Positions 21,001 to 24,000 of a stretch of DNA of 33,630 nt are shown here, in pieces (position 1 is the stretch's first letter; each line of letters opens with the position of its first letter). Origin of the DNA: a virus (taxonomy: Duplodnaviria > Heunggongvirae > Uroviricota > Caudoviricetes); the IMG/VR virus record IMGVR_UViG_2534681675_000029, positions 1-33,630 of that record; one strand, 5' to 3'. Position numbers: made by a program.

Positions 21001-24000
21001 GCATACCGTGATGGTGCGGGGATCTGGACCATCTGCCGTGGAGCCACCCGGGTGGATGGTAAGCCTGTTATTCCTGGCATGAAGCTGTCAAAGGAAAAAT
21101 GCGACCGGGTTAACGCCATTGAACGTGATAAGGCGCTGGCATGGGTGGCGAAAAACATCAAAGTGCCACTGACTGAACCCCAGAAAGCGGGGATCGCGTC
21201 ATTCTGTCCGTATAACATTGGCCCCGGTAAGTGTTTCCCGTCGACGTTTTATAAACGAATTAATGCAGGCGATCGCAGGGGAGCGTGTGAAGCGATTCGC
21301 TGGTGGATTAAGGACGGTGGCAGAGACTGCCGTATCCGCTCAAATAATTGCTACGGTCAGGTATCCCGGCGAGATCAGGAAAGTGCGCTGGCGTGCTGGG
21401 GAATCGACAGATAAGCAGAATATTTTGCTGAAAAATGACGTTGACCAACGCGGACGGATAACACGAAATCCTGCGAACTGGCAAAACCTAAGTGAATAAA
21501 AGTAAAACCCCGTTTGTTGGCAGCAAGCGGGGTTTTGTGTTTCTGACCTTGGATAAGGCAAGGGAGAACATGGAAAAGTATAAACGAATTCTGTTGAGGT
21601 TGACTATGAAAAACGGCCTTGAACTGAAAGCGCCTGTAACTGATGACATCAGCAGAGCGCTGGCTTTTGCTATTAAGTGGGTGGCGGTCGGTATTGCTGT
21701 GTCTCCGATGCTGTATGGGCTGGCAAAACTGGTCATTGCGTTGAAATCGTGAAGAGGATTAAGCATGTCAGACAAGCTCATAACGCTGGCGAAGATCCTC
21801 TGTGTAATCGTCGGCATTTCATTTTCACTAATGCTGGTTGCTCTTAGGCTGGATGATGTTGTCTTCGTCGGGGATGCTGGGGTGAGGGGGATATGAACCG
21901 TGTTCTGTGTGTGGTGATTATTGTCCTGCTGGTAGCCTGTGGTGCGCTTGGTCTGGGGCTGAATCATTACCGCGATAACGCCATCACTTACAAAGAGCTG
22001 CGCGATAAAAAAGTCAGTGAGCTGAAGCTGGCGAACGCCACCATTACTGATATGCAGCAGCGCCAGCACGATGTTGCTGCGCTCGATGCAAAATACTCGA
22101 GGGAATTAGCCGATGCGAGAGCTGAAAATGAAACTCTGCGTGCTGATGTTACCGCTGGTCGTAAGCGCCTGCGGATCAACGCCACCTGCTCAGGTTCCGT
22201 GCGTGAAGCCACCGCCACCGCCCGCGTGGGCAATGATGCCAGCGTCGAACTCTCTCAAGTTGCTGGACGAAACGTTCTCGGTATCAGAGACGGAATCATC
22301 AGCGACCAGGCAGCATTGAGAACGCTTCAGGAATATATCCGTACTCAGTGCCTGAAATAGTTTTTTCAATGCGTTGTATCGTCGCCGTATTTCCGCATTA
22401 ACAGAGACCGCAGCCCTACGGGGAGACTCCTCTGCGCGAGTGTGCGGGGATAATCAAAAACGATACACACCGGGGTTTACTGCGTTAACGGAGCGCGGCG
22501 TTGTCCCCTCATAGTCGCCTGGCCGGTGCGATGGTGGAAGAAACCGGAAATTTATTCAATAAAAAAACCTGCCGGGTTGTTACGGCAGGTTATGGCACAT
22601 GCAGAAGAGAATGTTGTTGTTATGACGAATTTTTTATCAGATTTTAATGCAAGTATTCAATTCGAAATAACCGAGCCTGAATTACAATATATGTTATGAA
22701 TTATTCTCTTATTTTTTGAGCCATTCAACAAGACTGGCATGGAGCAGTTACCCGATCTCCATAAAGGAATAACAGGAAATATCTTATTATTAAGCATTTC
22801 TGAATAATAAATGAGGTCGCTGGATTAATATATTGTCTTTTTAACTGGAGTTGCGGTAGTTTTGCCCGATGTTTTTTGATGACTTATTATTTATTCTTAT
22901 GCAATATGCGATTTTAAGTATGTTAAGTCTTTATCGGATTGTTTATGTAAGCACGATGGTTAAATTTTATGATTCTCTGCCGTCTGACATGGATTGAATT
23001 TGCTCATTATTTGACTGGGTGAATACATCATAAAACGAAAACGGGGCAACTGCACTCGCAGGCTCTTTGTCAGTGTCGCTGGTGTGTTTTGGGGCTGATA
23101 ACGATGAAGACCTCTCCCGGAGGAGATTCAGACATACCTGCACAAAGCCTGAATTGAAAAGCAACAGTTATAATGTGCAGTGCGGTGGGGATGAAAAATA
23201 TGTGAGCATAATCAAAAAAACTGCTGTGTTGGAGCACAGCAGTAAAGGTACTGATAAGGGTAGAAGATTATTATTGTTATTCTTTTTTATTTTATATGAC
23301 GGATGATTTCAATTCGGAATAAATACGACTAATAACTGCGACTTTTTGTAAATTCAGCAATATAAAGAAATGGTTATATGAACAGTTATCACAGAGCAGA
23401 CGGTGTATCATTCTTTGTTACAGTTAACTGACGGGCACATTTTATGTCTGCTGCCAGCCTCCGGCGACAGGCTTCAATAACCCATGCCGAAAAGTTGCCG
23501 GAGCCTTTATGCTCAAGGGCGATATTGATCTGCTCAATCATGTGATTGGGAAAACGGATGTTACGGGTTGTTGTTTTGCTGGTTTTGTTCTTCGATGACA
23601 TTGTCTTTTTCCATATTCACTGCAGTGTTCTGTATTGTCCAAAGATGTTTTTACTTAAATTTGATGCAGATCAATTAATGCATTGAGACCGAACTCATTA
23701 TTTGTCCTCTTTCATGGTGAACTTGTCGGTTGAGATAACTTTTATTTAATTGATAATTATTATCATTTTCGGGTCCTTTCTGGCGATCCGGCCTGTTACG
23801 GGGCGGCGACCTCGCGGGTTTTCGCTATTTATGAAAATTTTCCGGGATCCATGTCCGGTTTCTCTTCAAGTTAACTATATGAAAAATATAAAAACAGGTT
23901 TTCTGTGAACCGGACATGAACAAAAAATAGACATGTAAGCCGGACATGACCGGTTTTGTTGTGATTGCGAGGTGAGAGTTTTTGCGAGGTGAGGAGTGGC

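What the first reader, a model, noticed from the sequence alone, without database searches (positions are those of the whole stretch)
22361..23388. About 1 kb AT-rich, gene-poor stretch between Rz and the terminase region
The interval lacks convincing ORFs and is markedly AT-rich compared with the flanking lysis and packaging genes, which is typical of horizontally acquired or regulatory DNA. A hairpin plus T-run terminator on the minus strand sits at 22560-22590, and a 15-bp motif TTCAATTCG(A/G)AATAA recurs at about 22657 and 23309. It could hold a small RNA, a decayed moron, or sites for a nucleoid protein.
Basis: seen in the sequence. Interest (0 to 1): 0.4.

Follow-up and report, generated by a model that had tools for sequence, protein, structure and literature searches.

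The report
Two tandem HnrS-type prophage small RNAs
The "empty" stretch between the lysis and packaging genes of this E. coli prophage holds the recently described small RNA gene hnrS, which counteracts gene silencing, and next to it a diverged, undescribed second copy, so it is a small-RNA locus and not spacer DNA.

Summary
The interval is non-coding, but it is not empty and not uniformly AT-rich. It has four parts.

(1) 22372-22548 is a conserved module at about 54% G+C, found after Rz in many lambdoid prophages.

(2) On the minus strand at about 22623-22561 lies a predicted 63-nt small RNA ("A") with its own promoter and terminator.

(3) 22676-23209 is an AT-rich spacer with no conserved ORF.

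(4) On the minus strand at about 23280-23214 lies a 67-nt small RNA ("B") just downstream of the ylcI/ynfO-family gene.

B is an allele of HnrS (EcOnc10/11/12). HnrS is a 66-nt Hfq-bound sRNA of EHEC prophages that represses hha (PLoS Pathog 2026). B is 91% identical to it, and the first 23 nt, including the hha-pairing seed, are identical.

A is a diverged paralog, 68-69% identical. It keeps the CUUCU core. It occurs in only 43 of 5426 complete E. coli genomes, usually in tandem with the B allele.

Most Stx phages lack 22580-23213, so A plus the spacer behaves as an inserted extra unit.

Expression and targets of A are inferred, not shown.

The parts
21893..22360 (+). Rz (i-spanin) gene, with Rz1 embedded at 22113-22319. 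It forms the left border of the interval and belongs to the late operon read on the + strand.
   Evidence: ORF list. Annotated as "lysis protein" in the identical locus of strain GB089.
22372..22548 (+). Conserved module of about 175 nt at about 54% G+C, directly after Rz. It has sharp left and right borders. It may be a structured RNA element on the late-transcript strand. Function unknown.
   Evidence: About 90% identical in 1852 of 5426 E. coli genomes and in Stx phages, and 90-100% identical to ST866. In other phages, different DNA lies on both sides of it. Consensus fold on the + strand: 36 pairs, 98.3% of cells paired, and 29 double-change cells against 8.6 +/- 2.3 in shuffles. The single-sequence fold is no better than shuffles (z = 0.0).
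22561..22623 (-). Predicted 63-nt sRNA "A", a diverged HnrS paralog: AUAACAACAACAUUCUCUUCUGCAUGUGCCAUAACCUGCCGUAACAACCCGGCAGGUUUUUUU. The 5' end is inferred by homology.
   Evidence: An HMM built only from hnrS-type genes finds it in the window at E = 3e-4 over model positions 5-119 of 126. It is 68-69% identical to HnrS and B. The fold is a single-stranded 5' half plus a terminator, z = -4.06. The 21-nt core AUUCUCUUCUGCAUGUGCCAU is invariant in the 75%-identical ST866 locus.
22566..22591 (-). Intrinsic terminator hairpin of sRNA A, followed by the T7 run at 22567-22561.
   Evidence: Terminator scan and fold.
22632..22660 (-). Predicted sigma-70 promoter of sRNA A: -35 TTGAAT (22660-22655), 17-nt spacer, -10 ATAAAA (22637-22632).
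   Evidence: Read from the sequence. It is positionally homologous to the hnrS promoter (alignment). The -35 and -10 are kept in ST866 (TTGAAA / ATAATA) while the spacer between them diverges. The shared segment in porcine ETEC prophages ends at 22744, upstream of this promoter, and no minus-strand gene lies upstream there.
22656..22670 (-). Copy 1 of the 15-bp motif (minus strand TTATTTCGAATTGAA). It overlaps the -35 hexamer of promoter A.
22676..23209 (.). AT-rich non-coding spacer (37% G+C) between the two sRNA genes. The roughly 100 nt next to terminator B (23110-23209) are better conserved and include a degenerate remnant of the end of the conserved block.
   Evidence: No frame is conserved between the window and ST866. 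Conservation profile. The full-length spacer occurs only in about 24 E. coli genomes, plus the diverged ST866-type locus in 4 genomes. Nothing similar in the phage collection.
23214..23280 (-). sRNA "B", an allele of hnrS (EcOnc10/11/12), 67 nt: AUAACAAUAAUAAUCUUCUACCCUUAUCAGUACCUUUACUGCUGUGCUCCAACACAGCAGUUUUUUU. The 5' end is uncertain by about 3 nt.
   Evidence: 91% identical to Sakai HnrS, with the first 23 nt identical. nhmmer E = 1.9e-16 with the Sakai gene alone. Sakai HnrS was identified from the EcOnc11 Hfq-CRAC peak and from its 15-nt complementarity to the end of mazF, both matching PMC13502914. Fold z = -4.51.
23220..23243 (-). Intrinsic terminator hairpin of hnrS allele B, with its T7 run at 23220-23214.
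23284..23312 (-). Predicted promoter of hnrS allele B: -35 TTGAAA (23312-23307), 17-nt spacer, -10 TAAAAA (23289-23284).
   Evidence: Read from the sequence and aligned with the Sakai gene. In Sakai this geometry puts +1 at the 5' end of a 66-nt RNA, the length reported from dRNA-seq and Term-seq.
23308..23322 (-). Copy 2 of the 15-bp motif (minus strand TTATTCCGAATTGAA). It overlaps the -35 hexamer of promoter B.
23389..23601 (-). YlcI/YnfO-family gene (70 aa). It forms the right border of the interval. hnrS lies in what would be its 3' untranslated region.
   Evidence: ORF list, annotation WP_000095729.1.

Best explanation
The interval is a small-RNA locus on the strand opposite to the phage late operon. 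It holds two tandem, homologous sRNA genes.

Gene B (about 23280-23214) is an allele of hnrS. By homology it gives a roughly 66-nt Hfq-bound RNA. Its single-stranded 5' region (CUUCUACC) pairs with the Shine-Dalgarno region of hha mRNA (GGUAGAAG). It thereby lowers Hha and relieves Hha/H-NS silencing of horizontally acquired genes.

Gene A (about 22623-22561) is a diverged paralog with the same architecture: a TTGAAW -35 with a 17-nt spacer, an A/T-rich -10, an ARN-rich unstructured 5' half with a CUUCU core, and a G+C-rich terminator with a U-tail. It most likely also acts as an Hfq-dependent base-pairing RNA. Its target could be hha, where the predicted pairing is at least as strong as that of HnrS, or a shifted target set.

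A plus the AT-rich spacer (22580-23213) is extra DNA compared with ordinary Stx phages, so it behaves as a non-coding moron.

What is shown: homology, gene anatomy, conservation pattern and distribution. What is taken from the literature: the expression, Hfq binding and hha repression of HnrS in strain Sakai. What is inferred: expression of B and A in this prophage, and the targets of A.
For: Identity of the Sakai sRNA:
- The EcOnc11 Hfq-CRAC peak of Tree 2014 (Table S2) maps onto the 3' UTR and terminator of the ylcI-like gene of Sakai Sp10. I used a +142 coordinate shift, checked against AgvB1.
- EcOnc10-12 were renamed HnrS: 66 nt, intrinsic terminator, represses hha at its RBS AGAAG, and has 15-nt perfect complementarity to the end of mazF.
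- The 66-nt sequence I derived has exactly that mazF complementarity and the CUUCU seed.

Allele B:
- 91% identical to HnrS with the first 23 nt identical.
- Same predicted hha duplex, -12.1 kcal/mol.

Paralog A:
- Found by an HMM made only from hnrS-type genes, E = 3e-4 over nearly the full model.
- A and B regions are 65% identical over 118 nt.
- Stable terminator fold, z = -4.06.
- Between the window and the 75%-identical ST866 locus, conservation peaks at the -35, the -10, the 21-nt core and the terminator stem of A, while the terminator loop, the promoter spacer and the flanks diverge.
- In porcine ETEC prophages, A sits alone with only + strand genes beyond it, so any expression there needs its own promoter.
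- Predicted pairing of A with the hha SD and AUG is -13.5 kcal/mol.

Distribution:
- A-type is in 43 of 5426 genomes, up to 4 places per genome.
- In the fetched loci, 13 carry A and B in tandem 640-662 nt apart, and the 36 loci with hnrS alone include all 34 copies of the Sakai-type allele.
Against: There are no expression data for this prophage or for the A-type gene anywhere. Hfq binding, the 5' ends and the targets of A are all inferred.

The -10 of B lies only 3 nt from the homologous +1, because of a 3-nt deletion relative to Sakai. Its start site may therefore be shifted.

The hha duplex energies are not statistically distinctive. The z-score is -2.0 for the validated HnrS pair and -1.5 for A, so the prediction cannot discriminate targets.

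A-type sequences are nearly invariant (39 genomes at 99% or more), so there are few independent substitutions to test selection. Only the ST866-type ortholog is informative.

The mazF complementarity of HnrS is broken in B and absent in A.
Confidence: 0.75

Rival explanations
1. Only hnrS allele B is a working gene. Copy A and the AT-rich spacer are a decaying leftover of an old recombination or duplication between two prophages. They are carried along passively and perhaps simply coated by H-NS.
For: The A-type is rare (43 of 5426 genomes) and almost invariant, so purifying selection is hard to show. The spacer has no conserved ORF and drops to 25-60% identity in places. A degenerate remnant of the end of the conserved block lies downstream of B, which points to a duplication or recombination origin.
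Against: Across the 75%-identical ST866 ortholog, the -35, -10, 21-nt core and terminator stem of A are much better conserved than their surroundings. A persists alone, with its promoter region, in a different prophage type in porcine ETEC. The terminator is intact, and relative to B it differs by paired changes (CCUGCCG/CGGCAGG against CUGCUGUG/CACAGCAG).
Confidence: 0.2
2. The two RNAs act mainly in cis as antisense RNAs against the phage late transcript, which runs through this interval on the + strand from Rz towards cos and the terminase genes. They would influence processing or stability of the late mRNA during induction, and not host genes.
For: Both genes are fully complementary to the + strand late transcript by construction. 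They sit exactly at the boundary between the lysis and packaging modules. A conserved and possibly structured + strand element lies next to them.
Against: For HnrS, trans regulation of hha was shown with compensatory mutations, and most CLASH partners were host mRNAs. Many related phages have no sRNA gene at this position: the conserved block abuts ylcI or cos directly. Such a cis function therefore cannot be essential.
Confidence: 0.1
3. The interval encodes a small protein on the + strand overlapping copy A. This is the ORF at 22526-22699 (57 aa from GTG, or 35 aa from the ATG, MAHAEEN...), which PGAP calls a hypothetical protein in a few genomes.
For: It is annotated as hypothetical protein WP_157912270.1 in 3 of the porcine ETEC genomes. 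The ATG and the frame are kept in ST866 (read from the sequence).
Against: Most genomes carry no such annotation. The frame is kept only because this stretch has no indels. The conserved residues coincide with the sRNA core and the -35 motif on the other strand, and the middle shows radical replacements (N to F, D to F). The Shine-Dalgarno sequence is poor and lies 3 nt from the ATG.
Confidence: 0.04

Closest known systems
HnrS (EcOnc10/11/12) of E. coli O157:H7 Sakai prophages Sp9, Sp10 and Sp12 (Tree et al. 2014, PMC4104026; Poudyal et al. 2026, PMC13502914)
   Same: Same genomic slot: late region, between Rz and the terminase genes, just downstream of the ylcI/ynfO-family gene and antisense to the late operon. 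Same size and architecture. Copy B is 91% identical, with an identical 23-nt 5' end that includes the hha-pairing CUUCUACC. Copy A is homologous over promoter, body and terminator.
   Different: B differs between the seed and the terminator, which breaks the 15-nt mazF complementarity. A is only 68-69% identical. It has a different seed context (AUUCUCUUCUGCAUG) and a CA-rich 5' end. The paper describes one hnrS copy per prophage, whereas here two family members sit in tandem. A also occurs alone in porcine ETEC and Stx2e-type (O139, O141) strains, while the paper reports hnrS almost entirely in EHEC and EPEC.
AgvB / AsxR anti-sRNAs of EHEC prophages (Tree et al. 2014)
   Same: Short (51-60 nt), Hfq-bound, prophage-encoded and antisense to the late transcript in a moron slot. 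The 5' end of AgvB (AUAACAACACAACAA) resembles that of A (AUAACAACAACAU). Predicted pairing of A with the GcvB R1 region (-20.1 kcal/mol) approaches that of AgvB (-24.1).
   Different: AgvB and AsxR lie at the pR' moron site downstream of Q, not after Rz, and share their own conserved 42-nt 3' region. A lacks the exact CACAACA consensus. CA-rich shuffles of A also pair well with GcvB (z = -1.6). There is no evidence that A acts as a sponge.
Morons in the Rz-to-terminase slot: bor in lambda (from my own knowledge), and cspI-ynfQ-ynfR-ynfN-gnsB-ydfO in the K-12 Qin prophage
   Same: Same insertion hot spot between the lysis cassette and the ynfO/terminase region. Extra DNA with its own promoter and terminator, absent from close relatives.
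   Different: Those morons encode proteins. Here the cargo is non-coding, and K-12 Qin has neither hnrS nor the conserved block.

Membership tests
HnrS sRNA family - copy B (23280-23214) | Sequence homology to the 66-nt Sakai HnrS | tested here: met
   62 of 68 aligned positions identical (91%). nhmmer E = 1.9e-16 with the Sakai gene region.
HnrS sRNA family - copy B (23280-23214) | [quoted passage not shown] | tested here: met
   The first 23 nt are identical to HnrS. The predicted duplex is the same, CUUCUACC:GGUAGAAG, -12.1 kcal/mol. This is in silico only.
HnrS sRNA family - copy B (23280-23214) | Location in the late region of a lambdoid prophage, with an intrinsic terminator and a length of about 66 nt | tested here: met
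   It lies between Rz and nu1, downstream of ylcI/ynfO. Terminator at 23243-23214. Predicted length 67 nt, 5' end uncertain by about 3 nt.
HnrS sRNA family - copy B (23280-23214) | 15-nt perfect complementarity to the 3' end of mazF | tested here: not met
   B reads CUACCCUUAUCAGUAC where HnrS reads CUACCCAAUCAGUAC, which interrupts the duplex. The paper found no functional consequence of this pairing, so I treat the feature as non-essential.
HnrS sRNA family - copy B (23280-23214) | Expression, Hfq binding and repression of Hha | not testable with these tools
   Shown only for the Sakai copies.
HnrS sRNA family - copy A (22623-22561) | Sequence homology to hnrS genes | tested here: met
   An HMM built without A finds it at E = 3e-4 over model positions 5-119 of 126 in the 33.6-kb window. 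65% identity over 118 nt to the B region. 68-69% identity over the RNA itself. This is distant, so A is a paralog and not an allele.
HnrS sRNA family - copy A (22623-22561) | [quoted passage not shown] | tested here: inconclusive
   The CUUCU core is kept. The predicted duplex with hha -14 to +4 is -13.5 kcal/mol (7 bp CUUCUGC:GUAGAAG including one G-U, plus ACAU:AUGU). Dinucleotide shuffles average -10.0 +/- 2.3 (z = -1.5).
HnrS sRNA family - copy A (22623-22561) | Own promoter, intrinsic terminator and a length of about 60-70 nt | tested here: met
   -35 TTGAAT, 17-nt spacer, -10 ATAAAA, all conserved in ST866. Terminator fold z = -4.06. Predicted length 63 nt. All of this is from sequence alone.
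Moron (extra transcription unit inserted between genes that are adjacent in related phages) | Absent from close relatives with otherwise collinear flanks, and carrying its own promoter and terminator | tested here: met
   BP-4795 and Sakai Sp10 join window 22579 directly to 23214. The insert carries promoter A and terminator A.
AgvB/AsxR anti-sRNA group | Location at the pR' moron site and the shared conserved 3' region of about 42 nt | tested here: not met
   The location differs: AgvB1 lies between ECs_1960 and ECs_1961. The 3' halves are unrelated.
Any Rfam family | Covariance-model match | tested here: not met
   No match at gathering score in the interval. With E up to 10, only chance-level hits appear. 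HnrS is evidently not in Rfam 15.

The most novel reading that the evidence does not exclude
Copy A is not a redundant hnrS. It would be a functionally diverged second member of the family with its own regulon. Its invariant 21-nt core differs from the HnrS seed. Its (AAC)n 5' end gives predicted pairing to the GcvB R1 seed that approaches that of the validated sponge AgvB. It could therefore act as an sRNA sponge or target other host mRNAs. Some STEC and porcine ETEC prophages would then carry a two-sRNA cassette that rewires host regulation more broadly than hha repression alone.
Probability: 0.2. Interest if true: 0.5.

Novelty: new member of a known kind. Interest (0 to 1): 0.3.

Why it matters
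The stretch is unannotated in every genome record I inspected, with at most a spurious hypothetical protein. It nevertheless carries a regulator, HnrS, that has been shown to lower the silencing cofactor Hha and so modulate type III secretion and motility in EHEC.

A diverged tandem paralog in a subset of cattle and food STEC, and alone in pig ETEC and edema-disease strains, extends the family beyond the single conserved sequence described so far. It also gives a natural seed-variant pair for testing how prophage sRNAs diversify their targets.

This is an incremental addition to a freshly described system, not a new kind of element.

Tried and rejected
- **Rfam.** The scan of the whole window at gathering score, and of 22100-24100 at E up to 10, found nothing credible in the interval.
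- **AgvB/AsxR idea.** I first suspected that A might be AgvB-like because of its CA-rich stretch. The location and the 3' half do not fit.
- **Protein-coding readings.** These include the 42-aa hydrophobic ORF at 22869-22997, the 65-aa minus-strand ORF, the 79-aa ORF that crosses terminator B, and the MAHAEEN ORF. None is conserved in frame in the ST866 ortholog, or the conservation is explained by the sRNA gene on the other strand.
- **A bor remnant in the conserved block.** By eye I saw no similarity to the C-terminus of Bor, whose sequence I recalled from memory. No + strand frame is consistently open. A 35-codon minus-strand frame is open in all variants but has no SD and carries many replacements.
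- **Alternative promoter for A.** The candidate at 22728-22700 (TTGAAT-17-AATAAT) is not conserved in ST866.
- **Loose pattern scan.** The distribution outside E. coli is therefore untested, apart from zero hits for the A core in JGI metagenome contigs.
- **Chance seed match.** An 18-nt HnrS seed match in three AT-rich IMG/VR contigs is a chance hit with no terminator.
- **K-12 Qin.** It has only the ynfO homolog, with no hnrS and no conserved block.
- **Literature.** Searches for ynfO plus sRNA, and for Rz/terminase sRNAs, gave nothing.
- **Target prediction for A.** A genome-wide prediction was not possible because no whole genome is available to the scripts.
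Full report
**Setting.** The window is a lambdoid, Stx-phage-like prophage of E. coli. The full interval is 99-100% identical to unannotated DNA in 20 complete genomes of cattle, food and human STEC-type isolates such as GB089 and 09-00049. Rz ends at 22360. A YlcI/YnfO-family gene lies on the minus strand at 23601-23389. The lambda-type cos sequence GGGCGGCGACCT is at 23797-23808, and the small terminase subunit gene starts at 23996.

**Check of the observation.**
- There is no credible ORF.
- G+C is 0.388 for the interval, against 0.536 for Rz and 0.517 for the terminase genes. The first 195 nt are 0.538, so only 22556-23388 is AT-rich at 0.353.
- The minus-strand hairpin with a T-run is real: stem 22591-22566, T7 at 22567-22561.
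- A second, similar minus-strand terminator lies at 23243-23220, with T7 at 23220-23214.
- The 15-bp motif is at 22656-22670 and 23308-23322. It is unlikely to be chance: two sites found against 0.22 expected.
- A local alignment shows the motif is the best-kept part of a diverged direct repeat. 22558-22670 and 23210-23322 are 65% identical over 118 nt.

**Comparative anatomy.** Ordinary Stx phages such as BP-4795 and Sakai Sp10 match window 22328-22579 and 23214-23608 but lack 22580-23213. Porcine ETEC prophages with a different terminase share 22201-22744 and then diverge. Four genomes (ST866, ST865, OkiPb01678, OkiPb01712) carry the whole ylcI-to-Rz interval at about 75% identity. This gave one informative ortholog for every part of the interval.

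**Identification of the right-hand element.**
- Table S2 of Tree et al. 2014 lists Hfq-CRAC peaks EcOnc10, 11 and 12 in Sakai prophages Sp12, Sp10 and Sp9 as tabulated there. The AUC is about 33 million, among the highest values for the orphan sites in the table.
- The paper's coordinates are offset by +142 from NC_002695.2. I checked this with AgvB1, whose 60-nt gene I located by its CACAACA motif and terminator.
- With that offset, EcOnc11 falls on the last roughly 50 nt before and into the terminator downstream of the ylcI-like gene ECs_1967.
- A 2026 paper, posted as a preprint in 2025, renames these RNAs HnrS. It is a 66-nt Hfq-associated sRNA with an intrinsic terminator, one copy per prophage in the late genes. 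[quoted passage not shown] It also has 15 nt of perfect complementarity to the end of mazF.
- The 66-nt Sakai sequence that I derived from promoter geometry and the T-run contains exactly that 15-nt mazF complement and the CUUCU seed. This confirms the assignment.

**Copy B (about 23280-23214).**
- It is 91% identical to HnrS, with the first 23 nt identical.
- It folds into the same shape: an open 5' half and a terminator, z = -4.51.
- It gives the same predicted hha duplex, -12.1 kcal/mol.
- Its promoter is -35 TTGAAA, a 17-nt spacer and -10 TAAAAA.
- A 3-nt deletion after the -10, relative to Sakai, leaves the exact start uncertain by about 3 nt.
- The mazF complementarity is interrupted in B.

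**Copy A (about 22623-22561).**
- An HMM built only from hnrS-type gene regions finds it in the window at E = 3e-4 over nearly the whole model.
- It has -35 TTGAAT, a 17-nt spacer, -10 ATAAAA, a 63-nt body and a strong terminator, z = -4.06.
- Against ST866, the -35, the -10, a 21-nt core (AUUCUCUUCUGCAUGUGCCAU) and the terminator stem are conserved. The promoter spacer, the extreme 5' end, the terminator loop and the flanks diverge. This is the pattern expected of a working sRNA gene.
- Relative to B, the terminator stem differs by paired changes.
- In porcine ETEC prophages A stands alone, with only + strand genes beyond it. It cannot be a 3' UTR there.
- A-type genes occur in 43 of 5426 complete E. 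coli genomes, up to four places per genome, and in 16 IMG/VR contigs.
- In the fetched loci, 13 carry A and B in tandem 640-662 nt apart. The 36 loci with hnrS alone include all 34 copies of the Sakai-type allele.

**Function of A.** This is inferred only.
- A keeps the CUUCU core. It is predicted to pair with hha from -14 to +4 at -13.5 kcal/mol. Such energies are not distinctive, because even the validated HnrS pair has z = -2.0.
- Its CA-rich 5' end gives predicted pairing with the GcvB R1 region of -20.1 kcal/mol. The values are -24.1 for the validated sponge AgvB and -12.6 for HnrS. I keep this as the most novel reading and not as a conclusion.

**The spacer 22676-23209.**
- It has no ORF conserved with ST866. 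Similarity jumps between frames.
- The full-length spacer is found only in the genomes with the tandem locus, plus the diverged ST866-type locus.
- About 100 nt next to terminator B are better conserved. They include a degenerate copy of the end of the conserved block. This suggests that the tandem arose by duplication or recombination of a unit made of block end, terminator, sRNA and promoter.
- Binding by H-NS is plausible for DNA at 35% G+C but is untested.

**The G+C-rich block 22372-22548.**
- It is a separate, widespread module: 1852 of 5426 genomes.
- Its borders are sharp. In different phages it is preceded by different Rz ends. It is followed by the ylcI 3' end, by cos, by hnrS, by A, or by other DNA.
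- A consensus fold on the + (late-transcript) strand has 36 pairs with 98.3% of cells paired. Two well-populated compensatory pairs exist. Double-change cells number 29, against 8.6 +/- 2.3 in shuffles. The common one-sided changes all give G-U on the + strand.
- The single sequence folds no better than shuffles (z = 0.0). The compensatory changes may be only two events.
- I therefore rate a structured late-transcript RNA element as possible but not established.

**Verdict.** The interval is a non-coding sRNA locus. It holds a known gene (hnrS, allele B), a new diverged family member (A) inserted with an AT-rich spacer as a non-coding moron, and a conserved block of unknown function. The main element is already published, so the novelty is modest.

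Noticed in passing
window 22372-22548 (+): A discrete conserved module of about 175 nt at about 54% G+C sits directly after Rz. It is present in 1852 of 5426 E. coli genomes. It has sharp borders and different neighbours in different phages. The covariation pattern favours an RNA structure on the late-transcript strand, but the single-sequence fold is no better than shuffles. Function unknown.
   Followed up: partly
window 9011-9565 (+): Two tandem copies of an isrK plus C4-antisense RNA pair: isrK at 9011-9087 and 9383-9458, C4 at 9112-9199 and 9475-9565, all above the Rfam gathering scores.
   Followed up: no
window 19074-19272 (+): A full-length match to the Rfam sRNA STnc100 (147.6 bits), about 3.3 kb upstream of the interval. 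Its position relative to Q and pR' was not checked.
   Followed up: no
window 17414-17486 and 17591-17664 (+): Two tRNA genes upstream of the lysis region, by Rfam match only. Sakai Sp5 carries ileZ-argN-argO tRNA genes just upstream of stx2.
   Followed up: no
window 23797-23808 and 23730-23790: A lambda-type cohesive-end sequence GGGCGGCGACCT, preceded by an AT-rich palindrome (TTGATAATTATTATCA). In some related phages the conserved block after Rz abuts this cos region directly, with no ylcI or sRNA gene in between.
   Followed up: partly
window about 21488-21900; L001 2811-3381: The antirepressor-like gene inside the lysis cassette is annotated as frameshifted in the identical GB089 locus. 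It is broken into several short ORFs in the window.
   Followed up: no
L177 302-377 (IMG/VR contig 2718217885_000014): One viral contig keeps sRNA B, the spacer and sRNA A, but has different DNA in place of the B promoter and ylcI. The recombination joint lies right at the 5' end of B.
   Followed up: no
host and strain names: The A-type gene without hnrS is found in porcine ETEC and edema-disease strains (O139:H1, O141:H4, UMNF18). The published survey reports hnrS almost entirely in EHEC and EPEC, and whether these porcine strains carry the LEE was not checked. The tandem form is found in cattle, food and human isolates.
   Followed up: partly
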